Shown here in pieces: positions 665-14,887 of a DNA stretch of 20,000 nt. Positions within the stretch are counted from its first letter, which is position 1; every line of letters starts with the position of its first letter. Made by a program: the position numbers and the translations under genes. The notes below the pieces were generated by a model that worked only from the letters and a program-made list of their open reading frames with translations, made no database searches and was not told the origin of the DNA. The stretch lies in IMG/VR virus record IMGVR_UViG_2660238084_000001, one strand, 5' to 3'. The DNA comes from an uncultured virus (IMG/VR IMGVR_UViG_2660238084_000001) (lineage: Duplodnaviria > Heunggongvirae > Uroviricota > Caudoviricetes).

Positions 665-991
665 ATGCGAATAGCTCTAATCATGCTGGCGGTCGCATTG
701 GCCGGATGCGCCTCAAAAGCCCCTCCCAAGCTTGGAGAAGCGGCGCAGGCTAGACTGGATAGACCAATGCCCGCCTCGGAAGAACAGCGCGTATGGGAGT
801 GTGCGGGGACCACAGACACAATCAAGGGCCTTGCCGTTATTCTTCGAATGCAAGGGCACCCGATCGATTGGGACGGCGAAATTTGGTCGGTCGCTGAAAG
901 AGCCCGACGCCTGGGCTGCACCCAGGCTGAAATGGACGCCCCTGATCAAGGCCGCTGGTCAAGCAAGGGATCCTCTCACAAAGCGAATTAA
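665..991 (+). CDS. Putative lipoprotein
   Basis: SD-like AAAGGA upstream; signal peptide with lipobox LAG-C (MRIALIMLAVALAGC); two further Cys residues. Confidence 0.8.
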   Translation: MRIALIMLAVALAGCASKAPPKLGEAAQARLDRPMPASEEQRVWECAGTTDTIKGLAVILRMQGHPIDWDGEIWSVAERARRLGCTQAEMDAPDQGRWSSKGSSHKAN

Positions 992-1206
992 TGGCTTGGA
1001 TGGTTGTGAGAAATACCGCTTCATGCCTTGGCATGGGGATTTGTAGCGCTAAATCAGGAGTCAGTCATGAGAAACAGGATGATGGCTCCATTGACGCAAG
1101 GCTAGATTTCTTTCTATGCGGCGGAGGCGGCTTGTAAGTGATATCCGGTCAAGGAGCACCAAGTTGTCGGCCGGGGCATCTGGCCCGTCATTCATGGAAA
1201 TGTGAG

Positions 1207-1515
1207 ATGAATGTATTTCGAGTCGCGGTACTCATAGTCGCTTCGCTTATTGTCTCAAGCTGCGCCAGCAAGCCAAAAACTGAATACGAAAAGAAAGTCG
1301 AAGCCATACCAATGCCAGCGACTGAAGCCGAGCGACTTGAGCAATGTCGGGCAGTTCAGAGTCTCGCAAGATCAGCCTTTATTGACGACGTGCTTCACGA
1401 CGCCCAGCGCACAGACCCCGGCCCTGGCTTCCCGGCTTACGATGAGTCGGTGTATCCAGCGCTTATGCGACGCCATCGTGCAATGAATTGCCCTAGCTTT
1501 AATTTGCTAAAGTGA
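1207..1515 (+). CDS. Putative lipoprotein, paralog of 665-991
   Basis: ATG at 1207 gives MNVFRVAVLIVASLIVSS-C (lipobox). Shares CASK, PMPA.E..R...C and R.R...C motifs with 665-991. Confidence 0.75.
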   Translation: MNVFRVAVLIVASLIVSSCASKPKTEYEKKVEAIPMPATEAERLEQCRAVQSLARSAFIDDVLHDAQRTDPGPGFPAYDESVYPALMRRHRAMNCPSFNLLK

Positions 1516-1736
1516 TGAGCGCATGGCGAGAACAGGCTTTCCGGAGCAAGGCCAGGGTCATTGCCTGGCTGGCGTTACTCATGGTGATTCCTGGCGCGTC
1601 CGACTCGGCCTGGCTGAGCGGAGGATCATCCGGCCGCAAGCGGGTCTTCAGTTCGGGCTTCGTCGTATTGTGCGTTTTCGTGGCTGTGGTTGAGCTGATA
1701 GCGCTGAATCACTTCTATGGTATGCGGGTGAGGTAA
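1512..1736 (+). CDS. Small membrane protein with two hydrophobic segments
   Basis: Start overlaps the upstream stop (GTGATGA); hydrophobic runs VIAWLALLMVIPG and FVVLCVFVAVVELIAL. Confidence 0.55.
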   Translation: MMSAWREQAFRSKARVIAWLALLMVIPGASDSAWLSGGSSGRKRVFSSGFVVLCVFVAVVELIALNHFYGMRVR

Positions 1737-1770
1737 AGGCTGGGCAGATTGCGCGAGGCCGGGCCACATA

Positions 1771-1834
1771 GGTTGACAAATCTCAATTTCAGCAATGAAA
1801 TTTGGTTGACAAATCAGGGAATCAGCAAGAACAT
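1771..1834 (+). promoter_or_regulatory. Promoter/operator region of the 1867-3570 operon
   Basis: GGTTGACAAATC occurs at 1771-1782 and 1804-1815, each containing a perfect TTGACA. A perfect 7-4-7 palindrome AATTTCA-GCAA-TGAAATT lies at 1785-1802. The -10 candidates are weak (TGAAAT, GAACAT). Confidence 0.65.
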
Positions 1835-1866
1835 GCCACCATCAATACTTGGTGAGAGCAAGTCGC

Positions 1867-2463
1867 ATGTCCCATAAACCCGCCTTTTTTCACTCAGACC
1901 TTACCGATGACCGCCTTAGCGTGATCGCTGATGCGTTGCTGGATATCAGGTTTACGACCATCCAAGAAATGCAGTCGGAATACGACTCTAATTTTAGCCG
2001 CGAAGTGGCGGCTTTCGAGCGGTCAAAAAACATGCTGATTTCCATGTGCATGTCAAAGTCCCACAAATGGCTTTCACTATCGAATCCTGGCATGGATGTA
2101 ACTTTTTGCATCGGCGGTGTTCCATGCCGCTTCTTTCGTGATGACCCTGAGAGCCCCGACAAGAAAGGGTTTTTCAAGCGCAATTCCGTTGATGACATGT
2201 TCTCTGAAGATGACGATCACCCTGTGATCTGGCGTTTTGTCATTGAGCGAGCGGAGGGAGATGAAAGCGAGGACAGAGCGCACTTCATCGGTTACAACGT
2301 TTACCAGGAAAAAGTCTCTCAGTGGACTCATGGCTCCAGGGGTGCTTACCTGCATTCTGTTGGCGGTCCTGCTCCTGCATCTAAGACGTTGCTTCCCGCC
2401 CAGATCGATCTCCTGGAAGACGATATTGATAATACTGGTAACAATGACGCGGTTAACGAGTAA
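1867..2463 (+). CDS. Hypothetical protein, candidate toxin/effector partner of the downstream HTH-peptidase
   Basis: 198-aa ORF from ATG 1867 (alternative TTG at 1849); acidic, probably disordered C-terminal tail; stop lies 3 nt before the next ATG; visibly more AT-rich than the phage core. Confidence 0.8.
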   Translation: MSHKPAFFHSDLTDDRLSVIADALLDIRFTTIQEMQSEYDSNFSREVAAFERSKNMLISMCMSKSHKWLSLSNPGMDVTFCIGGVPCRFFRDDPESPDKKGFFKRNSVDDMFSEDDDHPVIWRFVIERAEGDESEDRAHFIGYNVYQEKVSQWTHGSRGAYLHSVGGPAPASKTLLPAQIDLLEDDIDNTGNNDAVNE

Positions 2464-2466
2464 TAC

Positions 2467-3570
2467 ATGAGCCTTGCATTTGAAGGAGCGTCTCTCAAGC
2501 TTGCACGGGTGTTTTCCGCGATGGCTCTTGAAGAGGTTGGTGCTCTGGTTGGAAAAACCAGGCAATATGTTCACAAACTTGAAACAGGACAGAGTGCGCC
2601 GACTGAGACGCTAATTCTCAGCCTTGCTGAAGCACTCAATGTCGAGCCTGAGTTTTTCCAGTCCAGAGTCAATCGCCTTCATGAAGATCAGTTCCACTTC
2701 AGAAAGCTGCTTTCGACAACCAAAACCACCAAACAAGTAGCTATTGCTAGGGGCGAAGTCGTCCATTCGCTCATTGGCTATCTTGAGAAGCAGCTCAGGC
2801 TCCCGTCCGTCAACATACCTAGTATTCCAGACATCCATAGCCATGACTGCATTGAGCGGGCTGCCGAAAGCTGCCGCGAAGAATGGGATTTGGGGCTAGG
2901 GCCGGTGGACAATATGACGCGACTTGCAGAGAATCTGGGAGCCGTTGTTTTAAGCTTCGAAGGCCTCACAAAAGAAATTGATGCGTTGTCAGTAGCAGTC
3001 GAAAGGCCTTTCATTGTGAGAAACAACTCGAAAGAAAGTACTAGTCGGTATCGATTCGACATCGCGCATGAACTTGGCCATCTTGTTATGCATGAAGGCG
3101 TTGTAACTGGCGATCGAATCACTGAAAACCAAGCCAACCGATTTGCTAGCGCTTTTTTGTTGCCAAGAAGTATGATGATGAAGTTTTTCCCACGCCCAAA
3201 CGGGACAAGACTTGATTGGAAAGGCATTCGGGAGTTTAAGGGAAACTGGAAAGTCAGCAAGGGCGCAATCTTGTATAGGGCTCGTCAGCTTGAAATAATC
3301 ACTGACGCCCAATACAAAACTGGCGTCATTACATTAAAGAAGCATGAAGGAACACGAGAGAAGGATGACTATCTAATCCCCGAGGAGCCGCCAGAGGTGT
3401 TACTCAAATCTCTAGCTTTGCTCGCCTCTAAGAAAGGACTTTGTGAAGAACAACTCGCTAGGGCGCTTAATGTGAAGCCAGCTTTCCTCAGAGAGCTTCT
3501 GGGCCCATCGACCTTAGCCCCTCTGCAGTCAGTGGCTAAGCGAGCTGGGTACCTTCGAATCATTAAGTGA
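2467..3570 (+). CDS. XRE-family HTH fused to ImmA/IrrE (Peptidase_M78, COG2856) zinc metallopeptidase
   Basis: N-terminal HTH (LKLARVF...EEVGALVGKTRQYVHKLETG); RFDIAHELGH carries HExxH; ENQANRFASAFLLP; WKVSKGAILYRARQL. Confidence 0.92.
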   Translation: MSLAFEGASLKLARVFSAMALEEVGALVGKTRQYVHKLETGQSAPTETLILSLAEALNVEPEFFQSRVNRLHEDQFHFRKLLSTTKTTKQVAIARGEVVHSLIGYLEKQLRLPSVNIPSIPDIHSHDCIERAAESCREEWDLGLGPVDNMTRLAENLGAVVLSFEGLTKEIDALSVAVERPFIVRNNSKESTSRYRFDIAHELGHLVMHEGVVTGDRITENQANRFASAFLLPRSMMMKFFPRPNGTRLDWKGIREFKGNWKVSKGAILYRARQLEIITDAQYKTGVITLKKHEGTREKDDYLIPEEPPEVLLKSLALLASKKGLCEEQLARALNVKPAFLRELLGPSTLAPLQSVAKRAGYLRIIK

Positions 3571-3799: not shown

Positions 3800-3824
3800 A
3801 GCCCGGCCCAGCGCCGGGCTTTTT
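3800..3824 (+). terminator. Rho-independent terminator, near-identical copy of 3578-3600
   Basis: AGCCCGGC-ccagc-GCCGGGCT-TTTT, between the peptide gene and the convergent DUF1652-like gene. Confidence 0.85.
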
Positions 3825-4241: not shown

Positions 4242-4267
4242 AAGCCCGCCATTGAGTGGGTTTTTTT
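4242..4267 (+). terminator. Rho-independent terminator insulating pL
   Basis: AAGCCCGC-cattga-GTGGGTTT plus a T-run, directly upstream of the operators. Confidence 0.75.
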
Positions 4268-4285: not shown

Positions 4286-4327
4286 ATCACATTTCGTGTT
4301 GACCAAATAAACACAATACGTGATAGT
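4286..4327 (+). promoter_or_regulatory. pL-type promoter with two repressor operators (OL)
   Basis: TTGACC (4299-4304), 17 bp, GATAGT (4322-4327), comparable to lambda pL TTGACA-17-GATACT. Operators ATCAC-atttc-GTGTT (4286-4300) and AACAC-aatac-GTGAT (4310-4324) are 24 bp apart and overlap the -35 and -10 elements. Confidence 0.85.
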
Positions 4328-4384: not shown

Positions 4385-4825
4385 CCCTGACGCCAGATGG
4401 CCGTTGAGTTCAGGGAACAGCACGAAACACAGTCTGCTACCGCGCACGATTACCCGGCGCGAAAGGTTTGCTGGAAACACAGAAACAAAAACGGAAAGCA
4501 TCACTGAAATACGCAATGAATTAGCGCCCCGAGCTTCGGCGATGAGGGGTGCCGGACCTCATGCACCCTGCCCACCTAACCGGGCAAACGAGCTGCAGCG
4601 TGCATGTTGTATAGGACCTGTGATCCAAGGCGAATAGATACAGATGCTGATTGACGCCCTGGGGAGGAAGCTCACCGCCAACCACTGAAAAAGACCGGCC
4701 AGCCCTGCAATCAACAGCGGGCAACTGGCCAACACCGTTGACGCAGCAAGCCGCGACCGACGCCAGTAGCGGGTCGCGGTGGACACCATCACTGAAGCAC
4801 CTGGCTTGCCGGGTGCTTTGGGATG
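4385..4825 (+). ncRNA. Structured 5' leader of the pL transcript
   Basis: Successive stems at 4385-4415, 4524-4552 (cUUCGg loop), 4560-4606, 4697-4730, 4751-4779 and 4787-4825. No credible CDS before 4846. Confidence 0.55.
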
Positions 4826-4845
4826 ACAACCACCGAGTAGACGTA

Positions 4846-5247
4846 ATGGATACCACCATCGTATGCGGGGCATGGAGAGGCCACCTCGGCCGTGGTCTTG
4901 CGCCGCGAGAGTTGCAGTTTTTGTTGTCAGCCGCCCAGGGCTGCACAGCCAAGGAAATCGCCCGCACATTCGGCATTGCGCCGGGCACGGTCGTTAAGCG
5001 GCTGTCGGTCGCCATGTACAAGCTCGGCGTGAATCGCCAGACAGCGATGATCGCCGAGGCCATGCGCCGCCAGATCATTTCCCCGCTCTGCCTCATGTTC
5101 ATGTCGGTCATCGTGCTGCACGCGATGCTGGACGACGAGTCGATGAGGCGAGACAGAAAGATCCCTGAGTCACGCCGGGGCGGTTACGAACTCAAGATCA
5201 GCCGCAAGGGCTCGGAAAAGCTCCGGCCAGTCGCGGCGATCTGCTGA
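4846..5247 (+). CDS. LuxR-type C-terminal HTH transcriptional regulator
   Basis: LAPRELQFLLSAAQGCTAKEIARTFGIAPGTVVKRLSVAMYKLGVNRQ is a GerE/LuxR HTH. ATG 4846 follows hairpin 4787-4825. No ligand-binding domain. Confidence 0.88.
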   Translation: MDTTIVCGAWRGHLGRGLAPRELQFLLSAAQGCTAKEIARTFGIAPGTVVKRLSVAMYKLGVNRQTAMIAEAMRRQIISPLCLMFMSVIVLHAMLDDESMRRDRKIPESRRGGYELKISRKGSEKLRPVAAIC

Positions 5248-6183: not shown

Positions 6184-6234
6184 GATTTCACTGGCTGGCC
6201 TTGGCACCAGGGCCAGACGGGAATTCAACCGGAG
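6184..6234 (+). repeat. Intergenic bulged-A hairpin plus SD, copy R3
   Basis: Differs from R1 at 3 of about 48 nt; followed by AACCGGAG. Confidence 0.85.
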
Positions 6235-6242
6235 AACACGAA

Positions 6243-6488
6243 ATGATTGAACTAGGCAAGAAGGCCCGCGACAAGATCAGCGGATTCGAAGGCGTAATCA
6301 CCGGACGTGCGCAGTACCTCACGGGATGTGATCAATACGTGCTGTCGCCGGCTGCCAAGAATGGGGAAATGCAGAAATCAGAGTGGTTTGATGAAGGCCG
6401 TCTTGAAGTGACGGGCGACGGCGTAAGTGCCGAGTCAGTTGCAGGGCCACGGCCAGGGGGGCCACAGCGAGACGCCCCTGCTACCTGA
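6243..6488 (+). CDS. Hypothetical phage protein
   Basis: GGAG SD; MIELGKKARDKISGFEGVITGRAQYLTGCDQY...WFDEGRL, a small phage protein pattern I recognise. Confidence 0.8.
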   Translation: MIELGKKARDKISGFEGVITGRAQYLTGCDQYVLSPAAKNGEMQKSEWFDEGRLEVTGDGVSAESVAGPRPGGPQRDAPAT

Positions 6489-6502
6489 CTAATCATGACT
6501 CA

Positions 6503-6920
6503 CGTCAGCTTGACGAAAACTGCCCGAACACCTGGAACGCTTGAACGCTGACCAGGCCGCATCGGAGATTGATCGGAGCGTGCCCAAGCGGGCTGCAGCG
6601 CTAGGATCGCAAAGCCCCGGAAAAGTCCTGAGCCGGATCTGCCGGCCAATACCAGAAACGCGGCGGGAACCAAGCAGGGGTTGCGCCCTGGTGTTCCGAT
6701 CAATCTCCGATGCGGATGAGTACACACCGCAACCGAACCAATAAACGCGAGTAGTGGAGACGCAGTAGGTGGGCACGAGCAACGTGTGTCCCTGCCGAGC
6801 CTATGAACCACGAAGAGCGATGAGGTGGCGTACCGCCAAGCTACTGGGCTGACAGCCGGAAAGACGGCAAGGCGCTAGCGGATGAGTACAAGCCGTTCAG
6901 TCGGCCCCCTGTGTAGCGCC
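6503..6920 (+). ncRNA. Non-coding structured RNA region
   Basis: Perfect 21-bp inverted repeat 6557-6577/6695-6715 enclosing several small hairpins; further stems to 6920; no credible CDS. Confidence 0.6.
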
Positions 6921-6941
6921 ATCCCCTCCCCTAATTCAAAC

Positions 6942-7078
6942 CGACCGCATCGGCAGGTGCCAAGCCAGTCTCACGGCTGGGGTTGGTCACCCGCGTATGG
7001 GATCTGGCCAATGCGGTCAAGGAGCCTGATATGCACCACTCAATCAGCCAGCGTCGGCAATTATCGAAGGTCTGCGCC
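6942..7078 (+). repeat. Degenerate copy of 7434-7571 (RNA stem, SD and frameshifted gene start)
   Basis: Aligns end to end with 7434-7571. A 1-nt deletion (cgtcggca vs cgtcgtgca) frameshifts the duplicated MHHSISQR start. Confidence 0.9.
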
Positions 7079-7082
7079 TAAT

Positions 7083-7310
7083 TTAGGCATTTCCTAAATG
7101 CCCATCTACGAACTCCCAAACATCGTAATGCGCGTTTGAATGGAACGACCATCTGATCCAGTTCGCACCGCAACATCTGCATGTGTGCGGGAGGCCATTG
7201 CGCCCCTCGTGACGTAGTGTCATGCCGGACCGTTCCATGCGGTCCGTATCAGATGTCTGCACTCCTGAAGAGTTTGCAGCCAAAAGCTGCTGACATTGTT
7301 CGCAGGGCAT
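7083..7310 (-). CDS. Small zinc-ribbon-like protein (antisense moron)
   Basis: MPCEQCQQ...HTCRCCGANW has two CxxC pairs; lies between the two direct repeats. Confidence 0.65.
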   Translation of the reverse strand: MPCEQCQQLLAANSSGVQTSDTDRMERSGMTLRHEGRNGLPHTCRCCGANWIRWSFHSNAHYDVWEFVDGHLGNA

Positions 7311-7433
7311 ACGTGTTGTCCAGTGCAGATACGAAGTGATGAAACAAGGATACATCTCACAAAAGCTTAAGCCCAGACCTCAAGTCCAGAGCCCCCTCGG
7401 GCACGTGACTTCACCTCCACCGTCAAACCACAA

Positions 7434-7571
7434 CGACCGCATTGGCAGATGCCAGGCCAGTCTCACGGCTGGGTTTGGTCACCCGCGCCTGGTATCTGAC
7501 CAATGCGGTCAAGGAGCCTCATATGCACCACTCAATCAGCCAGCGTCGTGCAATCCTCGAAGGCCTGCGCC
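7434..7571 (+). repeat. Intact copy of the duplicated element (multibranch RNA stem, AAGGAG, gene start)
   Basis: GACCGCATTGG pairs with CCAATGCGGTC and CAGATGCCAGGC with GCCTGGTATCTG, enclosing two short hairpins; ends immediately before SD AAGGAG. Confidence 0.9.
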
Positions 7572-7861
7572 AGCGCTGCACCCTTTCCACTGCCGAGTTT
7601 TACGACAAAGTCGGCCGTCGCAACCCGGCGGCCCTGCCGCGCTTCACCGTGATTCCGAACGGCAACAACGAGTTCGGCATCGTTGAGCGTTCCACCGGCC
7701 TTGTGCGGGCGGTTCATAAAGGCCACGGCGTAGCGTGCAAAGCGGCATCGCACCTTGAAGCCACGCCAATGCGCCAGCCGTCTTTCGCGTCGTACATGCT
7801 GCGCTGGACTGCCGCCATCGCCACCGGCCTGGCGCTGTTCGCGCTGTACGGTGTCAGCTGA
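7523..7861 (+). CDS. Hypothetical phage protein with C-terminal hydrophobic helix
   Basis: AAGGAG SD, ATG 7523; C-terminus WTAAIATGLALFALYGVS; TGATG coupling to the next gene. Confidence 0.8.
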   Translation: MHHSISQRRAILEGLRQRCTLSTAEFYDKVGRRNPAALPRFTVIPNGNNEFGIVERSTGLVRAVHKGHGVACKAASHLEATPMRQPSFASYMLRWTAAIATGLALFALYGVS

Positions 7862-8463
7862 TGATCAGTCCAGAGCTGAGCACGATTCAGCGAAACAAAG
7901 AACGGTCCGCGGCGCTCGAGGCGGAAGTAGCCGAATTCCTCAAGCGCGGCGGCGTGATCGGCACGCTCAAGGGCTTCCCGATCAGGCCAGAGCCAAAGCG
8001 CTACGGCCGCATGACCGCACCGACGGCGCGACCGCCTGAGCCGCACCGCCGGACCAAGGAAGCGATACGCGCAGCTGCGCCACCGCCATCGACCCAAAAC
8101 CTGCCACGGGGCCACGTCAGCGATGAGGTGGTCGCACAGATCCGTCACATGGCGTTGACAACCACCATAACCGACGTAGGGCGCAACACCGGAGTCAGCC
8201 ACCACATGCTCCGCAAGATCGCCTCCGAGCACAGGTTTGATTACAAGCCCTTCGATCCAAGCCCAGGTCTTGCGTGTGTGAAGGCCGCGCGCACAGACCC
8301 GGTCGCGGATGCTTTGAACGTGCTGCGCATCAAGGAAGCGCGGGACCGCGGCCTTTCGCGCAAAGCCGCAAAAGACCTCATCGGGATCAGCAGCACGCTG
8401 ATGGAGCGCCTGCTCAAAGACTTTGCCATTGATTACCCGCTGCACAGGATTCGCCGCAAGTGA
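7861..8463 (+). CDS. Hypothetical phage protein, possible HTH-like segments
   Basis: Coupled to the upstream stop; TITDVGRNTGVSHHMLRKIA and LSRKAAKDLIGISSTLMERL look HTH-like. Confidence 0.75.
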   Translation: MISPELSTIQRNKERSAALEAEVAEFLKRGGVIGTLKGFPIRPEPKRYGRMTAPTARPPEPHRRTKEAIRAAAPPPSTQNLPRGHVSDEVVAQIRHMALTTTITDVGRNTGVSHHMLRKIASEHRFDYKPFDPSPGLACVKAARTDPVADALNVLRIKEARDRGLSRKAAKDLIGISSTLMERLLKDFAIDYPLHRIRRK

Positions 8464-8551
8464 GGCGCATGCAGTCCCGCGCCAACCTCCGCCGCCGCCC
8501 TCTTCAACTCAACATCCCACCCAGTGGAATAACGCCCACGGAGCCAAAGCC

Positions 8552-8899
8552 ATGTCGAAAGCGACAGATACCACCGAATTCCTCAACGAACTGAATGGCG
8601 GCGCTTTCGCCAGCCAGATCGGCCACGCCCTTTCCGAAGTTGCCGCCGGTGTGGTTGACCACGGCAAAGCCGGGAAGCTGGTCATCACCCTCGACTTCAC
8701 CCAGATCGGCGAATCGCACCAGGTGAAGATCAAACACAAGCTCGATTACAAGGTGCCGACCAAGCGCGGCACCCGCAGCGAGAACACCAGTCTGGATACG
8801 CCAATGCACGTTGGCACTGGCGGCAACATTTCCCTGTTCGCCGAAAAGCATGACCAGCTGTTCACGCGTGAACAGGCACCCATCGTTCCCCGCACCTAA
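8552..8899 (+). CDS. YfdP-like phage protein
   Basis: GGAG SD; TDTTEFLNELNGGAF..IGHALSEVAAGV...PTKRG..SE...DTPMHV; lies upstream of a DUF2303 gene as in CPS-53/SfV-type prophages. Confidence 0.75.
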   Translation: MSKATDTTEFLNELNGGAFASQIGHALSEVAAGVVDHGKAGKLVITLDFTQIGESHQVKIKHKLDYKVPTKRGTRSENTSLDTPMHVGTGGNISLFAEKHDQLFTREQAPIVPRT

Positions 8900-8925: not shown

Positions 8926-9738
8926 ATGTCCCTCACGAAAGAAGCAATTCAACTGATCATCGACAACGCCCTGATCGCAGAAGGCAGAGAGCTGGGCACC
9001 GTCACACCGACCATCGTGCTGCCGGAAGGCGCGAAGGTCGTGAACCTTGAGCAATTCGGCGCAGGCCGCAGCCGCTTCCGTGGCACCTTCTCCACCAACT
9101 CCTTGGCGGACTTCGCCAAATACGTGTCCGACCGGGCAGTCGCCGACGCAAAAGGCTTCATCAATCAGGACGAAATGACCTGTTCGGTGCTGTTCAACCT
9201 GGGCAACGAGGAAGTGCCAGGCCACGCAGATGACCGCGCGGTGCTGAAACTCAAGCCCACCGCCGCCTACCAGGCCGTGCAAGCCATCAGTGGCCGGGCC
9301 ATGTCGCAGAAGGATATGAGCGACTGGATTGAAGACTGGCACAGCACCCTGTCGGCGGTCGGTGATGAGCTGCAGAACATCCCGTTGGCCAAAGCCATCG
9401 CCGCCGTGCGCACGATCACGGTCAAGGCATCTTCGGAAAGCGATCACACCGTCAGCGAAACACGCGCCAGCCGCAGCGCAATGGATGCCATCGAGGCGAC
9501 CAGCAAGGAAACCTTGCCCACGTCGCTGATCTTCTCGGCTGTGCCGTTTGAAGGCCTGCAAATGCGCGAAATCATCCTGCGAATCTCGGTCATCACCAGC
9601 GGTGCCCAGCCGGTGTTGAAGCTGCGCTGGGTCGGTGAGGACGTCCAACGCGAAGAGATCGCGCAAGAGTTCAAGTCGGTGCTTGAAGCGAAGGTCGGCG
9701 ATGCAGCTCAGCTGGCGTTGGGAAGCTTCTCGGCCTGA
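8926..9738 (+). CDS. DUF2303 (YfdQ) family protein
   Basis: 270 aa; LEQF...RSRFRGTFST.SLADF..Y, FNLG...PGHAD, SQKD.SDWIEDW, PFEGL..R.I.LR, EEIAQEFK. Confidence 0.88.
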   Translation: MSLTKEAIQLIIDNALIAEGRELGTVTPTIVLPEGAKVVNLEQFGAGRSRFRGTFSTNSLADFAKYVSDRAVADAKGFINQDEMTCSVLFNLGNEEVPGHADDRAVLKLKPTAAYQAVQAISGRAMSQKDMSDWIEDWHSTLSAVGDELQNIPLAKAIAAVRTITVKASSESDHTVSETRASRSAMDAIEATSKETLPTSLIFSAVPFEGLQMREIILRISVITSGAQPVLKLRWVGEDVQREEIAQEFKSVLEAKVGDAAQLALGSFSA

Positions 9739-11380: not shown

Positions 11381-12238
11381 ATGTCTCCCTACAAAATGTC
11401 CGGGATGACGGTCGTCAGCTTTTCCGGTGGTCGGACCAGCGCCTACATGCTGCGCCAGGTGCTGGACGCCAACGATGATCTGGACGATCTGATCGTCACG
11501 TTCGCCAACACCGGCAAGGAACACCCCGCCACCCTCGACTTTGTGAACGAATGCGCGAGGCGCTGGCAGGTGCCCATCGTCTGGCTGGAGTACCGCGATG
11601 ATGATAGAGGCTTCGCCATTGTCACCTACGAAACCGCCAGCAGGGACGGCGAGCCGTTCGAAGCGCTGATCAGGAAACGCAGCTACCTGCCGAACCCGGT
11701 CACACGGTTCTGCACCATCGATCTCAAAATCAGAGTGATCCACAAGTATCTACGGATGGTTGGATGCTCCACTGAGGAAACCCCGGTCGACATGATGACC
11801 GGCATCCGGGCAGACGAGCCAAGGCGCGTGGCGAAGATCCGCCACCGCAAGACCACGACTGAAAGCAAACACGCCACGATGGTGATGCCACTGGCTGATG
11901 CGGGCGTAGGTGTGCAGCAGATCGGAGAATTCTGGAAGGCTCAGCCGTTTGACCTGGAGCTACCGACGATAAATGGCCGCACTCTGGAGGGCAACTGCGA
12001 CCTGTGCTTTCTCAAAGGAGCAAAGCAGGTCTACTCGATCATAGCCAGCGACCGGAGCAAGGCAGACTGGTGGGCGCGGATGGAACGCACCGCCACCCAG
12101 AGCAGCGCCGCCACAACTGACGGCGCGCTGTTCCGCTTCGACCGGCCGAGCTATCAGCAGATGCTCGATTATTCGGATACCCAGTTCGATATGTTCGCCG
12201 ACCACGAAGGGGCAATTGCCTGTTTCTGTGGCGATTGA
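11381..12238 (+). CDS. PAPS-reductase-family (adenine nucleotide alpha hydrolase-like, NinC-like) protein
   Basis: PP-loop SFSGGRTS, FANTGKEH..T..FV, RFCTIDLK, GIRADE, GNCDLCFLK, C-terminal CFCGD. Confidence 0.85.
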   Translation: MSPYKMSGMTVVSFSGGRTSAYMLRQVLDANDDLDDLIVTFANTGKEHPATLDFVNECARRWQVPIVWLEYRDDDRGFAIVTYETASRDGEPFEALIRKRSYLPNPVTRFCTIDLKIRVIHKYLRMVGCSTEETPVDMMTGIRADEPRRVAKIRHRKTTTESKHATMVMPLADAGVGVQQIGEFWKAQPFDLELPTINGRTLEGNCDLCFLKGAKQVYSIIASDRSKADWWARMERTATQSSAATTDGALFRFDRPSYQQMLDYSDTQFDMFADHEGAIACFCGD

Positions 12239-12718: not shown

Positions 12719-14887
12719 ATGTCCGCACAACGGAAGAAACATCCCTTCGATTTTAAAACCCAGTACGGCCTTGGCTTCAATCCGCAAGACGATGAGATCG
12801 TTGTGGACTTCTTCTGCGGTGGTGGCGGCGCCGGTACTGGGCTGGAAATGGGCCTCGGGCGCACCGTCAGCGTGGCCAAGAATCACAGCGCTGCGGCGAT
12901 CAGCATGCACACAGTCAACCACCCGGGCGCGAAGCACTTCACCACCGACGTGTTCGACGGCGATCCAGATACCGAATGCGGTGGAAAAGCGGTGGGCTGG
13001 TTCCACATGAGCCCGGATTGTACCCATCACAGCCAAGCTGCTGGCGGGCAACCGCGCAAGCGCGAGATCCGCAACCTTTCTTGGATCGGCTTGAAGTGGG
13101 CGGGCAAGAAGAAACCCCGCGTCATCAGCCTGGAGAACGTGAAGCAGATCCTGCAATGGGGGCCTCTTGTTGCTAAACGAGACCCGGCCACAGGCAGGGC
13201 CATCAAGCTGGTCACAGTTCTGGGCACCAATGGCAAAGCGAAAATACAGCACACTGTTGCAGCACCTGGCGAGGTTGTTCCGGTTGATCAGCAATTTCTG
13301 ATGCCAGACCCTACGCGGCGTGGCCAGACGTGGGCCGTGTTCGTCGCCGAGCTGGAGCGCCTGGGCTATGCCGTCGAGTGGCGTGTGATCCGAGCGTGCG
13401 ACTTCGGCGCGCCCACCAGCCGGGAACGCCTGTTTATGATTGCCCGCTGCGACGGGCAACCGATCGTGTGGCCAGAGCCGACCCATGCCAAGCGTCCCGT
13501 TAAAGGCCAGAAGCCGTGGAGGACCGCCGCCGAGTGCATCGACTTTAACGACCTCGGCAGAAGCATCTTCGGACGCAAGAAAGACCTGGCTCCCGCCACC
13601 CTGCGCCGGGTCGCCAAGGGCATGAAGAAGTTCGTCATCGACAACCCCGCCCCGTTCATCGTCCCGATTGCGAACTGGTCAGGTGAGACGGTGCAGTCGG
13701 CCGCCGAGCCGTTGCGCACTGTGACGTCATATCCAAAGGGCGGCGCTTTCTCGGTCGTCAGCCCAGTCATCGCGCCAGCGACTCACCAAGGCAGCGATCG
13801 CATCAACGATCCGCTGGAGCCGTTGCCGACGATCACCTGCGCCAACCGTGGCGAGTTCACGCTGATCAGCCCCACCCTGATCCAGTCTGGCTACGGCGAG
13901 CGCCAAGGCCAGCTACCTCGCGTGCCGGGAATCGACCAACCGCTGGGAACGGTCGTTGCCGGAGGAGTGAAGCACGCGCTGACAAGTTCGATTCTCGTGG
14001 GTGCTGGCGGGCCAGTGTATGCAGGCAAGCCGGTGGCGGCAGATCAGCCCGTTGGGACATTGATGACGCGGAATCACCGAGCGGTGTCCACTGCATTCAT
14101 GGCTCAGATGAACGGTGGCTTCAACACCACCGACGCCAAAGGCGTTGACGAGCCTATGACGACGATCACCAACACCGGCAGCCAGCAGCAACTCGTGACC
14201 GCGACACTGATCACCAATACCACCGGCCACGGACCGACAGACCTGGCCAATCCAGTGCCCACAATGACGACGGGGCAGCACCACGCACTGGTAGCCGCAA
14301 ACCTGGTGCACCTGCGCGGTAACTGTGATGCGCGGGACTTGAATGACCCGCTGCATACGATCAGCGCCGGCGGCCAGCACCACGGAATGGTAACTGCATT
14401 CATGGAGCGGCAGTTCGGTGCCAGCGTCGGCCAGCCTCTGGACGAACCCGCCCCAACGGTCACAGCAGGTGGCGGCGGTAAAAGCTCAGTCGTATCGCTC
14501 AGGCTCTCCCCGGAGCATGAGGAAGGTGCGCTGCGCGTTGCCGCGTTCCTGATCAGTTACTACGGGACCGAAAACGTAAGCGGCGCGGGCGAACCGGCAC
14601 CAACGATCACGACCAAAGATCGCCTGGCGCTGGTCACCGTCATGGTCAAGGGCACGCCCTACGTGATCGTCGACATCTGCCTACGAATGCTCAAACCGGC
14701 CGAGTTGTACAAGGCCCAGGGATTTCCCGCCGACTACGTCATCACCCACGGTGCCGACGGCAAGCCCTTCAACAAAACCCAGCAGGTGCACATGTGCGGC
14801 AACAGCGTGAGCCCGCCGCCGATGGCTGCACTTGCTCGAGCAAACGACCCGTGGCGCATATCAACTCAACACCAGGTGGCAGCATGA
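12719..14887 (+). CDS. DNA (cytosine-5) methyltransferase with an expanded repeat-containing variable region
   Basis: Motif I DFFCGGGG, motif IV SPDCTHHS, VI ENV, VIII RERLF, IX RML...ELYKAQGFP, X GNSVSPP. Confidence 0.95.
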   Translation: MSAQRKKHPFDFKTQYGLGFNPQDDEIVVDFFCGGGGAGTGLEMGLGRTVSVAKNHSAAAISMHTVNHPGAKHFTTDVFDGDPDTECGGKAVGWFHMSPDCTHHSQAAGGQPRKREIRNLSWIGLKWAGKKKPRVISLENVKQILQWGPLVAKRDPATGRAIKLVTVLGTNGKAKIQHTVAAPGEVVPVDQQFLMPDPTRRGQTWAVFVAELERLGYAVEWRVIRACDFGAPTSRERLFMIARCDGQPIVWPEPTHAKRPVKGQKPWRTAAECIDFNDLGRSIFGRKKDLAPATLRRVAKGMKKFVIDNPAPFIVPIANWSGETVQSAAEPLRTVTSYPKGGAFSVVSPVIAPATHQGSDRINDPLEPLPTITCANRGEFTLISPTLIQSGYGERQGQLPRVPGIDQPLGTVVAGGVKHALTSSILVGAGGPVYAGKPVAADQPVGTLMTRNHRAVSTAFMAQMNGGFNTTDAKGVDEPMTTITNTGSQQQLVTATLITNTTGHGPTDLANPVPTMTTGQHHALVAANLVHLRGNCDARDLNDPLHTISAGGQHHGMVTAFMERQFGASVGQPLDEPAPTVTAGGGGKSSVVSLRLSPEHEEGALRVAAFLISYYGTENVSGAGEPAPTITTKDRLALVTVMVKGTPYVIVDICLRMLKPAELYKAQGFPADYVITHGADGKPFNKTQQVHMCGNSVSPPPMAALARANDPWRISTQHQVAA

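What the first reader, a model, noticed from the sequence alone, without database searches (positions are those of the whole stretch)
6557..6715. Perfect 21-bp stem enclosing a roughly 115-nt multi-hairpin RNA
Seen: CCGCATCGGAGATTGATCGGA (6557-6577) is the exact reverse complement of 6695-6715 and extends further by G-U pairs. Inside are short stems GCCC-aagc-GGGC, AGGAT/GTCCT, CCGG-atctg-CCGG and CAGGG-gttgcg-CCCTG. No ORF fits and it is not a tRNA cloverleaf. Inference: a carrier stem from which a discrete small RNA is excised, such as an antisense regulator, protein decoy or anti-defence RNA.
Basis: partly seen in the sequence, partly recalled or inferred. Interest (0 to 1): 0.72.

Follow-up and report, generated by a model that had tools for sequence, protein, structure and literature searches.

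The report
Conserved pseudoknotted RNA in phage early operon
The long stem closes a five-helix, pseudoknotted RNA domain that is conserved in the early operons of temperate phages of Pseudomonas and enterobacteria, matches no catalogued RNA family, and most likely controls transcription of the genes behind it.

Summary
6557-6577 and 6695-6715 are exact reverse complements. With one G-U pair the stem is 23 bp (6557-6579/6693-6715).

The enclosed part, not the stem, is what is conserved. I found 98 distinct variants in viral contigs and matches in 23 loci of species-representative genomes (Pseudomonas, six enterobacterial genera, one unclassified Proteobacteria MAG). The family has five covarying helices and a covarying pseudoknot. 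G-U pairs place the RNA on the + strand. There is one copy per genome searched and no Rfam 15 match.

The closing stem is about 23 bp in Pseudomonas phages, only 8 bp in enterobacterial phages, and an unrelated 18 bp in another lineage. This goes against a "carrier stem with swappable cargo".

In enterobacterial phages the element lies in the untranslated leader, after the CI repressor gene, its terminator and the operator/promoter. A strong intrinsic terminator often follows before the first early-left gene. In the window it lies inside the CI-to-integrase operon.

My best reading (0.35) is a cis-acting RNA that lets RNA polymerase read on, working like HK022 put or Bacillus EAR without being a member of either. 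Rivals are a riboswitch-like attenuator, an excised trans-acting RNA and a processing site. Function is inferred, not shown.

The parts
6503..6515 (+). Small hairpin CGUCAG-CU-UGACG upstream of the element. The conserved CUGCCCGA follows at 6520-6527.
   Evidence: Read. The same ACGTCAGCCTGACG...CTGCCCGA string precedes the element in many Pseudomonas-type loci listed.
6531..6556 (+). P0 hairpin (CCUGG 6531-6535 / CCAGG 6552-6556), directly 5' of P1.
   Evidence: Relatives have a hairpin at the same place with other sequences: CUCU/AGAG, CCUGC/GCAGG, GGCA/UGCC.
6557..6579 (+). P1 5' arm. The closing stem is 23 bp including one G-U pair.
   Evidence: In 50 distinct Pseudomonas-type arm pairs, positions 1-23 are paired in at least 43 of 50 (position 7: 40 of 50, counting one G-U; position 23: 38 of 50). 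Covariation is seen at positions 4, 11 and 22.
6582..6593 (+). P2 hairpin GCCC-AAGC-GGGC.
   Evidence: Three of its 4 pairs show changes on both sides, and 99.7% of cells are paired.
6594..6601 (+). Joiner J2/3, UGCAGCGC, nearly invariant. It may form a short helix with GCGG at 6660-6663.
   Evidence: GCGC occurs in 94 of 98 variants. L068 changes GCGC to CCGG together with GCGG to CCGG. This rests on a single sequence, so support is weak.
6602..6630 (+). P3 (UAGGAU 6602-6607 / GUCCUG 6625-6630) with the 17-nt loop CGCAAAGCCCCGGAAAA.
   Evidence: Pair tables. The Pseudomonas type has UAGGAU/GUCCUG and the enterobacterial types have CGGUCGA/UCGACUG or CGGCCGA/UCGGCUG.
6616..6619 (+). Pseudoknot 5' strand, CCCG in the P3 loop. 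It pairs with CGGG at 6664-6667.
   Evidence: CCCG:CGGG is near-invariant among the 98 canonical variants (97-98 of 98 paired at each position; the extraction pattern itself required CCCG). Divergent lineages keep complementarity with other letters: CCCGG:CCGGG (L237), CCGGG:CCCGG (L247), CCUGG:CCAGG (L303, L214).
6632..6646 (+). P4 hairpin GCCGG-AUCUG-CCGGC.
   Evidence: Four of its 5 pairs show changes on both sides. Variants include GCAAC/GUUGC, GUCAC/GUGAC, GUAGC/GCUAC and GCUGG/CCAGC.
6647..6674 (+). Joiner J4/5: CAAUACCAGAAAC, GCGG, CGGG (pseudoknot 3' strand, 6664-6667), AA, CCAAG.
   Evidence: The search patterns themselves required parts of this joiner. An independent scan on P2 shows limited variation, such as CCAACACUA, CCAAUACUA and CAAAUACCA.
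6675..6690 (+). P5 hairpin CAGGG-GUUGCG-CCCUG.
   Evidence: Four of its 5 pairs show changes on both sides. Variants include CAGAU/AUCUG, CGACG/CGUCG and CGGAU/AUCCG.
6693..6715 (+). P1 3' arm.
6730..6877 (+). Extra segment of about 150 nt that close relatives lack at this place. It is flanked by an 18-nt direct repeat (6712-6729 / 6878-6895, 89% identical).
   Evidence: for the repeat; in L048 and L036, DNA matching window 6878 onward directly follows the element. Its end, GACAGCCGGAAAGACGGC, recurs upstream of the element in L005-type loci.
6943..7081 (+). Decayed duplicate (copy A) of the leader hairpin, SD and start of the phrog_6742 gene. A 1-nt deletion leaves a 16-codon frame (ATG 7031 to TAA 7079-7081).
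   Evidence: Alignment of 6870-7110 with 7370-7610 and the sequence.
7083..7355 (-). Minus-strand ORF of 90 aa lying between the two duplicate copies. It is probably an inserted moron.
   Evidence: One search lists the ORF. It has no Pfam or PHROG match. Its position between the duplicates follows.
7435..7510 (+). Second long-stem module (copy B). GACCGCAUUGG 7435-7445 pairs with CCAAUGCGGUC 7500-7510, ending directly at the SD AAGGAG 7511-7516. Its arms repeat the CCGCAUYGG / CCRAUGCGG words of P1.
   Evidence: Read. The module is conserved in relatives.
7523..7861 (+). First gene downstream, 112 aa, phrog_6742. A phrog_9129 gene follows at 7861-8463.
   Evidence: (E = 2.2e-33). The same family is the first downstream gene in L126, L068, L045, L036, L049, L042, L009 and L054.

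Best explanation
The 23-bp stem closes a conserved RNA domain of about 115 nt. The domain has four hairpins (P2-P5) joined by near-invariant single strands, and a pseudoknot between the P3 loop and the P4/P5 joiner. It is transcribed on the + strand as part of the phage's early operon, which runs from the CI-type repressor gene towards the integrase gene. I propose that it acts in cis on the transcription complex that makes it. Once folded, it would bind a conserved host component, most simply RNA polymerase or its elongation factors, and keep the polymerase elongating through terminators and long untranslated stretches so that the distal early genes are expressed. This is processive antitermination, the job done by HK022 put RNA and Bacillus EAR. 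The long P1 of the Pseudomonas version would serve as a folding clamp for a domain that sits between translated genes, and it may also be cut by RNase III. What is shown: the element exists, is conserved, has this structure, lies on this strand, is single-copy, and has these genomic positions. What is inferred: every functional step.
For: (1) The structure is real and selected. On 80 distinct cores, 94.1% of cells are paired against 76.4% in shuffles. 19 of 28 pairs have changes on both sides. The covariation score is 0.542 against 0.239 (0 of 500 shuffles reach it), and slid controls reach at most 0.13. The pseudoknot keeps complementarity in four letter versions.
(2) The RNA is on the + strand. 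In the first 8 pairs of P1 there are 69 G-U cells and 9 A-C cells. Several pairs are mostly G-U or U-G.
(3) Position in enterobacterial phages. The order is CI/LexA-type repressor gene, intrinsic terminator, palindromic operators and a promoter-like stretch, then an untranslated leader holding the element, then the first early-left gene (RdgC, Exo VIII, or phrog_204 plus DUF2303), and finally xis/int. This is where lambda carries nutL and HK022 carries putL (HK022: passages of PMC9378689 read; lambda: from established knowledge).
(4) A strong terminator lies 3' of the element: within 150 nt in 23 of 43 unique enterobacterial loci and within 400 nt in 31 of 43, against 9 of 43 within 400 nt on the 5' side. 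In phiNP and many others it is GGCGGUACCAG...CUGGUACCGCC followed by a U run, -14 to -24 kcal/mol, starting 25-65 nt after the element. In the annotated examples no gene lies on the + strand between the promoter region and that terminator. The early-left genes therefore need read-through, and the element is the main conserved feature upstream of the terminator. L247, a third lineage, shows the same order of element, terminator, SD and ATG.
(5) The core is kept at about 76% identity between phages of Pseudomonas and of Citrobacter/Klebsiella, while their flanks share no detectable DNA similarity. This fits a target common to these hosts.
(6) No N-like antiterminator is annotated in phiNP, only Q-type ones.
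(7) In the Pseudomonas type the genes that follow include phrog_9129, whose N-terminus weakly resembles the SutA RNA-polymerase-binding domain (22-26 bits, below Pfam's cut-off of 29.3).
Against: There is no experiment and no direct transcript-end data. The one raw-read run I laid held no reads. The model R1 finds nothing in the HK022 genome (best 11.3 bits, outside the immunity region), and no Rfam family matches. There is therefore no homology to any known antiterminator RNA that I could test. HK022 has put sites in both early operons, whereas here there is one copy per phage. In Pseudomonas-type loci terminators are not enriched behind the element: 1 of 65 within 150 nt 3', and 12 of 65 within 400 nt 3' against 9 of 65 within 400 nt 5'. 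The window itself has none. In the Klebsiella ST147-VIM1phi7.2 group I found no convincing terminator behind the element. In L012 the element follows lysis genes and precedes a tRNA gene, which is a different context. A 23-bp perfect duplex may be cut by RNase III; HK022 put is reported to work without a tether, but that may not hold here.
Confidence: 0.35

Rival explanations
1. Riboswitch-like attenuator. The domain is an aptamer for a small molecule or a host or phage factor. Binding would decide whether the downstream terminator (enterobacterial type) or the structure in front of the next gene's ribosome-binding site (Pseudomonas type) forms.
For: A multi-helix junction closed by P1, near-invariant joiners and a covarying pseudoknot are the usual anatomy of aptamers. 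An intrinsic terminator starts 25-65 nt after the element in many enterobacterial loci and in L247. In the enterobacterial type P1 is 8 bp, a usual length for a switching helix. In the Pseudomonas type a GCAUC word that copies the start of the P1 5' arm lies 10-40 nt behind the 3' arm. The hairpin next to the following gene's SD also repeats the P1 words, so alternative pairings are possible.
Against: I found no clear mutually exclusive antiterminator/terminator pairing that involves the element (by inspection only). A 23-bp P1 is too stable to switch. The genes downstream are heterogeneous (phrog_6742, phrog_204 plus DUF2303, RdgC, Exo VIII, dNMP phosphatase, MT-A70) and suggest no ligand. 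Terminators are not enriched behind the element in the Pseudomonas type. No known riboswitch model matches even at E up to 10.
Confidence: 0.2
2. Excised, stable, trans-acting small RNA. RNase III would cut the long P1 and release the folded core. The core would then bind and titrate a host or defence protein, or base-pair with a target.
For: P1 is about 23 bp and kept by compensatory changes in the Pseudomonas type. It is 18 bp with unrelated sequence in L237 and L247. These lengths fit RNase III substrates (established knowledge, not tested here). In L012 a tRNA gene starts 13 nt after the element, so RNase P would cut there. The element of relatives is present in contigs of RNA libraries (k-mer depth 98 and 1038). 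The conserved core across hosts fits a conserved protein partner.
Against: In the enterobacterial type P1 is only 8 bp, so excision by RNase III cannot be the common mechanism. The RNA-library contigs that hold the element are 1.7-2.2 kb long and run on into flanking sequence. Contigs cannot show ends or levels, and DNA carry-over is not excluded. The conserved letters lie in junctions, not in exposed loops as in base-pairing sRNAs. No target search was done.
Confidence: 0.2
3. Passive mRNA processing or stability element. This would be a structured intercistronic block whose stems are RNase III or RNase E sites. It would uncouple upstream from downstream cistrons, protect the new ends, and set translation of the next gene.
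For: The leader regions hold several long stems in a row: P0, P1 and the module next to the SD in the window, and 20-bp stems before and after the element in phiNP and the Klebsiella phage. This resembles phage T7 early RNA and the lambda N leader (established knowledge).
Against: A mere processing stem does not explain about 50 near-invariant unpaired nucleotides and a pseudoknot kept between distant phage groups. Nor does it explain why the core is kept while the stem length varies from 8 to 23 bp.
Confidence: 0.1
4. Self-cleaving ribozyme of a new class that cuts the operon transcript.
For: The size, the junction with invariant nucleotides, the pseudoknot and the phage context are all common among self-cleaving ribozymes (established knowledge). 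No alternative function is proven.
Against: No known ribozyme model matches the element. The only Twister-sister hit is a 17-nt fragment elsewhere in the Klebsiella leader. Contigs from RNA libraries run through the element. There is no positive evidence.
Confidence: 0.05
5. DNA-level element, either a MITE/REP-like repeat or a protein-binding inverted repeat such as a recombination or partition site.
For: There is a perfect 21-bp inverted repeat in DNA. The region is a hot spot of rearrangement in the window, with a direct repeat, an insert and a duplicated module.
Against: There is one copy in the window, in phiNP, in the rest of the provirus record and in each of three whole genomes. G-U pairs greatly outnumber A-C in the helices, a strand asymmetry that DNA duplex sites do not show. 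The inner hairpins and the pseudoknot covary.
Confidence: 0.03

Closest known systems
HK022 put RNA (putL/putR), a cis-acting antiterminator RNA of a lambdoid phage
   Same: Both are phage-encoded structured RNAs with no dedicated protein gene between promoter and element. In enterobacterial members the element lies in the leader of the early-left operon, just after the repressor gene and PL region, with terminators behind it. Put binds the conserved beta' zinc-binding domain of host RNA polymerase (passages of PMC9378689).
   Different: Put is about 70 nt with two stem-loops and occurs twice per phage. This element has a core of about 115-135 nt, five helices and a pseudoknot, and occurs once per phage. 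The covariance model finds nothing in the HK022 genome. In Pseudomonas phages it lies kilobases into the operon, between genes.
EAR (eps-associated RNA) of Bacillus, an intercistronic processive-antitermination RNA (recalled; paper not read here)
   Same: Both are complex, pseudoknotted RNAs of roughly 120 nt that sit between genes inside an operon. The position of the Pseudomonas-type element is similar.
   Different: EAR is chromosomal and Gram-positive. Nothing in Rfam matched the element, at gathering scores or at E up to 10; that Rfam holds an EAR/epsC model is recalled, not checked. Any functional likeness here is only inferred.
Riboswitch aptamers with terminator expression platforms
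   Same: They share a P1-closed multi-helix junction, invariant joiners and a pseudoknot. A terminator lies close behind the element in many enterobacterial members.
   Different: No Rfam riboswitch model matches. There is no consistent gene function downstream and no evident switching helix. P1 is 23 bp in the window.
RNase III processing stems of phage early transcripts (T7 R sites, lambda N leader; established knowledge)
   Same: There is a perfect duplex of about two helical turns within a polycistronic early phage transcript.
   Different: Those sites are simple, irregular hairpins. Here the stem encloses a conserved folded domain, and the stem is dispensable in enterobacterial relatives, where it is 8 bp.

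Membership tests
Any Rfam 15 family (4227 models) | A score at or above the family's gathering threshold, or at least a suggestive E-value | tested here: not met
   There were 0 hits at gathering thresholds in the whole window. At E up to 10, on 6400-7400 and on 6500-6740, only snoRNA, lncRNA, ribozyme or sRNA noise of at most 15.8 bits appeared. The Klebsiella phage leader gave only miRNA-like hairpin noise.
HK022-type put RNA | Sequence and structure homology to putL/putR (about 70 nt, two stem-loops) | tested here: not met
   Model R1 with filters off over the whole HK022 genome gives a best score of 11.3 bits at 2244-2359, which is not in the immunity region. The architecture here is five helices plus a pseudoknot.
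HK022-type put RNA | One copy in each early operon (putL and putR) | tested here: not met
   There is a single hit in the window (149.3 bits, next best 9.5), a single hit in phiNP, and none in the rest of the provirus record.
HK022-type put RNA | Suppresses terminators in cis by binding RNA polymerase | not testable with these tools
   Only positional evidence is available: promoter, then element, then terminator, then genes in enterobacterial members.
Riboswitch | A conserved aptamer with covarying helices | tested here: met
   for the five helices and for the pseudoknot.
Riboswitch | An expression platform whose structure excludes part of the aptamer | tested here: inconclusive
   Terminators lie 25-65 nt behind the element in many enterobacterial loci, but I saw no clear competing helix. 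Copies of the P1 words lie downstream in the Pseudomonas type.
Riboswitch | Consistent association with genes of one pathway or transport function | tested here: not met
   The downstream genes are phrog_6742, phrog_204 plus DUF2303, RdgC, Exo VIII, dNMP phosphatase and MT-A70.
RNase III substrate / excised small RNA | An uninterrupted duplex of about 20 bp or more closing the RNA | tested here: inconclusive
   This is met in the window and in 50 Pseudomonas-type variants (23 bp) and nearly so in L237/L247 (18 bp). It is not met in 40 enterobacterial variants (8 bp). Cleavage itself cannot be tested here.
MITE / REP-like repeat | Many copies per genome and target-site duplications | tested here: not met
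   There is one match in each of three whole genomes, one in the window and one in phiNP. The 18-nt direct repeat flanks a neighbouring insert, not the element.
tRNA / tmRNA | Cloverleaf or tRNA-like domain detected by ARAGORN | tested here: not met
   ARAGORN reports nothing at 6500-6750.

The most novel reading that the evidence does not exclude
This is a previously undescribed structural class of phage RNA that directly reprograms the host transcription machinery. It would be a put-like antiterminator with an unrelated, pseudoknotted five-helix fold. Alternatively it is a phage-borne aptamer that senses a ligand or factor common to Pseudomonas and enterobacteria and so times expression of the recombination, excision and anti-host genes of the early-left operon.
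Probability: 0.45. Interest if true: 0.85.

Novelty: new variant of a known kind. Interest (0 to 1): 0.7.

Why it matters
How temperate phages without an N-type protein get their early-left operon past terminators is known for very few of them, essentially HK022 and its relatives. A second RNA solution with an unrelated structure, shared by phages of Pseudomonas, Klebsiella, Citrobacter, Enterobacter, Pectobacterium and others, would widen that picture. It would also offer a compact genetic part for terminator read-through. Whatever its function, the element is a well-supported new structured RNA family: five covarying helices, a covarying pseudoknot, and about 50 near-invariant nucleotides. 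No annotation pipeline currently marks it. PGAP lists no feature there in E. coli genomes and Rfam 15 has no model for it. It can be tested directly with simple reporter constructs.

Tried and rejected
- **Rfam.** I searched at gathering thresholds and at permissive thresholds on the window and on a Klebsiella phage leader. Nothing relevant came up.
- **Recalled resemblance.** From memory, part of the P3 loop resembles a conserved motif of cyclic-di-GMP class I riboswitches, and other parts resemble TPP and purine riboswitches. I treated these as leads only. No Rfam riboswitch model, whichever class, reported the element at E up to 10, so I dropped them.
- **boxA-like word.** A word just upstream of P1 in some enterobacterial loci (GUGCUCUCUUCG...) turned out to be the 3' arm of a long hairpin. 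I do not claim it as a Nus-factor site.
- **sigma-54 promoter in P0.** The GG-to-GC spacing is off by one, and the hairpin changes sequence while staying paired. Rejected.
- **Expression data.** The raw-read run (X24) laid no reads. The three contig sets show only that relatives' copies occur in RNA libraries, inside contigs of 335 to 2179 nt. This gives no transcript ends and no proof of transcription.
- **Minus-strand ORFs** beside the element in Pseudomonas-type loci (182-310 aa) have no Pfam or PHROG match and are probably spurious. The idea of a divergent promoter directly upstream was therefore dropped.
- **Earlier findings of this scan.** Two look-ups found nothing.
- **Literature.** A search for the element's own sequence words returned only primers and unrelated hits among the 15 papers listed, none of which held either 12-nt P3-loop word. 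Searches on DUF2303/prophage/noncoding RNA and on processive antitermination/prophage/Pseudomonas listed nothing that describes this element, judging by titles and abstracts only. Passages of one preprint were checked and were unrelated. Subscription journals are not covered by these searches.
- **First regexes.** My first attempts at P1 length and P3 register were wrong (and the P3 table). They were corrected. A pseudoknot regex printed nothing and was replaced by explicit checks.
- **RNAalifold on the first MAFFT alignment.** It recovered only parts of the structure because the two types were misaligned.
Full report
**1. The observation**

The repeat finder gives arms 6557-6577 and 6695-6715, 21 nt, 100% complementary, 117 nt apart. 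In the sequence the helix continues through G6578-U6694 and C6579-G6693. The closing stem P1 is therefore 23 bp (6557-6579 / 6693-6715).

The + strand of 6545-6730 folds to -93.1 kcal/mol, against -68.2 +/- 4.4 for 200 dinucleotide shuffles (z = -5.7). The - strand gives z = -4.3.

- P2 at 6582-6593
- P3 at 6602-6607 / 6625-6630
- P4 at 6632-6646
- P5 at 6675-6690

ARAGORN sees no tRNA here. Rfam 15 has no match at gathering scores in the whole window. At E up to 10 around the element it still has no relevant match.

**2. Surroundings in the window**

The window is a prophage arm whose genes almost all lie on the + strand:

| Coordinates | Feature |
|---|---|
| 2-580 | S24/LexA-type repressor, cut at the window edge |
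| 2467-3570 | ImmA/IrrE-HTH protein |
| 3805-3820, 4242-4263 | Terminator-like sites |
| 4299-4327 | Promoter-like site |
| 4651-5247 | GerE/sigma-70-region-4-like protein |
| several | Small genes, the last at 6243-6488 (phrog_16275) |
| about 6489-7522 | About 1 kb without a convincing + strand gene |
| 7523-7861 | phrog_6742 |
| 7861-8463 | phrog_9129 |
| 8423-8899 | phrog_204 |
| 8926-9738 | DUF2303 |
| 11381-12238 | PAPS-reductase-like protein |
| 12719-14887 | C5 methylase |
| 18822 to end | Integrase |

The element therefore lies inside the operon that runs from the repressor gene to the integrase gene, which is the early-left arm of a lambdoid layout. By megablast the window resembles Pseudomonas phages, mostly of P. 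syringae, only in short stretches.

**3. Relatives: the inside is what is conserved**

blastn of 6400-7400 against 50,697 phage records hit one record, Citrobacter phage phiNP. The hit covered only 6585-6694, the interior of the stem, at 76% identity. It lies in a roughly 1-kb unannotated gap upstream of the sb37 and DUF2303 genes.

Pattern scans of viral contigs gave the following:
- Two conserved joiner words gave 56 loci.

After removing duplicates I had 98 distinct full variants and 80 distinct cores.

blastn of the window region against the oriented loci shows that in most relatives only the element matches and the flanking genes do not.

In one-genome-per-species bacterial contigs a strict pattern gave 25 loci. 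The covariance model confirmed 23 of them:
- 16 loci in Pseudomonas genomes (one MAG holds two of the loci)
- one unclassified Proteobacteria MAG
- Kosakonia, Superficieibacter, Enterobacter, Buttiauxella, Phytobacter and Pectobacterium

The Rhodoferax and Flavobacteriaceae hits were chance matches.

Other frequency figures:
- It occurs in 8 of 5426 complete E. coli genomes (4 with most of the query), and PGAP annotates nothing at the site.
- Eight phage records hold the enterobacterial form: seven Klebsiella phages and phiNP.
- In samples of genomes the model hit 3 of 151 Pseudomonas.
- It hit 1 of 151 Enterobacterales, and that one was the seed genome itself.

**4. Structure**

From the variants I read a common architecture, in this order:
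- P1
- GU
- P2, with loop AAGC
- UGCAGCGC
- P3, with loop CGCAAAG-N-CCCG-NRAA
- P4
- CAAUACCARAAAC, then GCGG, then CGGG, then AA, then NNAAG
- P5, with a loop containing UAGCG or UUGCG
- GU
- P1'

My own pair tables, anchored at the base of each helix, show several Watson-Crick pair types at most positions.

A covariance model (R1: 132 positions, 28 pairs) realigned the 80 cores. On that alignment:

| Measure | Observed | Control |
|---|---|---|
| Cells paired | 94.1% | 76.4% in shuffles |
| Pairs with changes on both sides | 19 of 28 | |
| Covariation score | 0.542 | 0.239 (0 of 500 shuffles reach it) |
| Covariation score with 3' partners slid by 1-3 columns | | at most 0.13 |

That alignment was fitted to the model, which favours the structure. 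My register-anchored tables do not depend on it and agree with it.

*Pseudoknot.* The P3-loop CCCG (6616-6619) and CGGG (6664-6667) are near-invariant among the canonical variants. Taken alone that says nothing about pairing. Divergent lineages found through the P2 scan keep complementarity with other letters:
- CCCGG:CCGGG in L237
- CCGGG:CCCGG in L247
- CCUGG:CCAGG in L303 and L214

*A possible short helix.* GCGC of J2/3 may pair with GCGG of J4/5. This rests on one sequence, L068, which has GCGC to CCGG together with GCGG to CCGG. It is weak.

**5. Strand and coding**

G-U pairs are frequent and A-C pairs are rare: 69 against 9 cells in the first eight P1 pairs. Pairs such as 7:134, 31:61, 32:60 and 37:56 are mostly G-U or U-G. 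The folded molecule is therefore the + strand, the same strand as the operon.

Core length differs among Pseudomonas-type variants by 1, 4 or 5 nt. This rules out a conserved ORF.

**6. The closing stem varies**

- In 50 distinct Pseudomonas-type arm pairs, P1 is kept for 23 positions. It covaries at positions 4 (A-U 27 / G-C 21), 11 (U-A 27 / G-C 23) and 22.
- In 40 enterobacterial arm pairs it is 8 bp, GUUGUGAC/GUCACAAC in most.
- In L237 and L247 it is 18 bp of unrelated sequence.

So long stems are selected in some lineages, but they are not part of the family's definition.

The variants L214, L303 and L247 keep P1, P2 and P5 but have a different stretch from P4 to the pseudoknot strand. 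They still have a P3 with an AAAG-ACC-NGG loop and the pseudoknot. They are divergent homologues, not foreign cargo.

L213 has lost its 3' part and its P1, and looks decayed.

**7. Copy number**

With filters off, R1 finds one hit in the window (149.3 bits, next best 9.5) and one in the whole phiNP genome. With default filters it finds none in the remaining 21 kb of the provirus record that holds the window. It finds one in each of three whole genomes. This is not a MITE.

**8. Context in enterobacterial phages**

In phiNP, Klebsiella phage ST147-VIM1phi7.2 and an E. coli prophage the order is as follows:
- Cro-type gene on the other strand
- CI/LexA-type repressor gene
- intrinsic terminator
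- palindromic operators with a promoter-like stretch
- an untranslated leader of 600-1000 nt that holds the element
- the first early-left gene
- xis and int at the far end

Pfam and PHROG scans of neighbours in the viral loci agree with this. S24 repressors lie upstream on the same strand. RdgC, Exo VIII, phrog_204 plus DUF2303, ParB-HTH proteins and others lie downstream.

*Terminators.* I looked for a strong intrinsic terminator, defined as a hairpin of -12 kcal/mol or better plus a U run.

| Locus type (unique loci) | Within 150 nt 3' | Within 400 nt 3' | Within 400 nt 5' |
|---|---|---|---|
| Enterobacterial (43) | 23 | 31 | 9 |
| Pseudomonas (65) | 1 | 12 | 9 |

In phiNP-like groups the terminator is GGCGGUACCAG...CUGGUACCGCC followed by CUUUUU, -14 to -24 kcal/mol, starting 25-65 nt after the element. 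A second conserved long-stem module follows it and ends at the ribosome-binding site. L247 shows element, terminator, SD and ATG as well.

In the ST147-VIM1phi7.2 group I saw no convincing terminator.

**9. Context in Pseudomonas phages**

The element follows a translated gene. In many loci it is followed by a small hairpin, a C-rich stretch ending in GCAUC (a copy of the first letters of the P1 5' arm), and a long hairpin. The arms of that hairpin repeat the P1 words, and it ends at the SD of a phrog_6742 gene. A phrog_9129 gene comes next.

phrog_9129 proteins carry a weak match to the SutA RNA-polymerase-binding domain, 22-26 bits against Pfam's cut-off of 29.3.

Other groups have a one-to-three-codon mini-ORF with a strong SD, followed by a terminator. 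GerE/sigma-70-region-4-like genes lie nearby.

One locus, L012, has the element after the lysozyme and spanin genes and 13 nt before a tRNA gene.

**10. The window's copy is typical, but its 3' neighbourhood is rearranged**

The element itself scores among the best in the family. Behind it lie several rearranged pieces:
- a segment of about 150 nt (6730-6877) bounded by an 18-nt direct repeat, which close relatives lack at this place
- a frameshifted duplicate (6943-7081) of the hairpin, SD and start of the phrog_6742 gene
- a minus-strand ORF with no family match (7083-7355)
- the intact copy (7435-7861)

**11. Expression**

I could lay only one set of runs. Relatives' copies occur in contigs of RNA libraries:
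- X1: a 2179-nt contig, depth 98
- X7: a 1709-nt contig, depth 1038. The same contig holds a second pair of P0/P1-flank matches with 110 other letters between them.
- X5: a 335-nt contig, depth 4.9

The raw-read run X24 laid nothing. Contigs give no ends, no strand and no levels, and DNA carry-over cannot be excluded. Transcription is therefore likely but not demonstrated.

**12. Interpretation**

The anatomy is that of an RNA that folds to be recognised: a junction closed by P1, about 50 near-invariant unpaired letters, and a pseudoknot. Its conservation across phages of Pseudomonas and Enterobacterales, amid otherwise unrelated flanks, points to a partner common to these hosts.

Its position in enterobacterial phages matches the place of nutL in lambda and putL in HK022: after the PL region and before a strong terminator that separates the promoter from the whole early-left operon, with no + strand gene in between. 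No N-type gene is annotated in phiNP. The passages I read of PMC9378689 describe put as a cis-acting RNA of about 70 nt with two stem-loops that binds the beta' zinc-binding domain, acts over at least 10 kb, and does not need to stay tethered.

I therefore rank a put-like or EAR-like cis-acting antiterminator first (0.35). It is not a put homologue: R1 finds nothing in HK022, the fold is different, and there is one copy instead of two. The missing terminator enrichment in Pseudomonas-type loci, and exceptions such as L012, keep confidence modest.

The rivals are:
- a riboswitch-like attenuator (0.2)
- a processing or stability block (0.1)
- a ribozyme (0.05)
- a DNA-level site (0.03)

**13. 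Novelty**

No Rfam 15 model matches the element, and PGAP lists no feature at the site. The literature searches I ran turned up no description of it. For these I saw listings and abstracts only, apart from passages of PMC9378689, PMC12315714 and one preprint. Subscription journals and supplements are not covered, so an earlier description cannot be excluded.

I class it as a new variant of a known kind: a structured cis-regulatory phage leader RNA. If it proves to be a new polymerase-binding fold or a new aptamer class, it would rank higher.

Noticed in passing
window 6184-6231: A conserved stretch of about 48 nt just upstream of the start codon at 6243 recurs at 81-96% identity in many relatives. 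It sometimes occurs twice per 3-kb locus (L007, L016, L033, L037), in front of different small genes. It may be a shared translation-initiation or linker sequence used in module shuffling.
   Followed up: no
L001 (phiNP) 3168-3339; L181 5397-5480; loci grouped: In enterobacterial leaders the terminator behind the element is followed by a second conserved module. Its closing stem is about 20 bp (ACACAAGAGACAAGAGCAUCACC ... GGUGCUCUUYUGUGUUGUGU) and it holds a conserved interior (CACCGGGYGACGGGCUCAUAACCCAAUCCACCCGGGCG). It ends at the ribosome-binding site of the first early-left gene. It looks like a second structured RNA family.
   Followed up: partly
window 7435-7516 and 6943-7024: A long hairpin of about 76 nt directly abuts the SD of the phrog_6742 gene. 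Its arms repeat the first nine letters of the element's P1 arms (CCGCAUYGG / CCRAUGCGG). In enterobacterial phages the corresponding module likewise repeats the local P1 words (GUUGUG / CACAAC). Long-range alternative pairing with P1 is possible.
   Followed up: partly
window 7861-8463; L036 and L014 homologues: phrog_9129 proteins encoded two genes after the element have an N-terminal stretch with a weak, sub-threshold match to the SutA RNA-polymerase-binding domain (22-26 bits against a cut-off of 29.3).
   Followed up: no
Pseudomonas-type loci L009, L013, L018, L019, L025, L032, L046, L054, L055: Downstream of the element several groups carry a strong SD followed by a mini-ORF of one to three codons (for example AUG-UAA or AUG-AAA-UAG) and then a strong intrinsic terminator.
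   Followed up: no
window 13910-14008: ARAGORN calls a 99-nt tRNA-Pro(GGG) inside the C5 methylase ORF (12719-14887). This is probably a false positive.
   Followed up: no
window 665-3570: Between the repressor gene and the terminators at 3805 and 4242 lie phrog_18333, phrog_29612, phrog_5786 and an HTH-ImmA/IrrE metalloprotease fusion. They may be expressed in the lysogen together with the repressor, as a possible exclusion or defence cassette.
   Followed up: no
L012 about 1560-1640: In one enterobacterial-type viral contig a tRNA gene (anticodon CAU by eye) starts 13 nt after the element. The pair sits between lysis genes and an MT-A70 methyltransferase gene.
   Followed up: no
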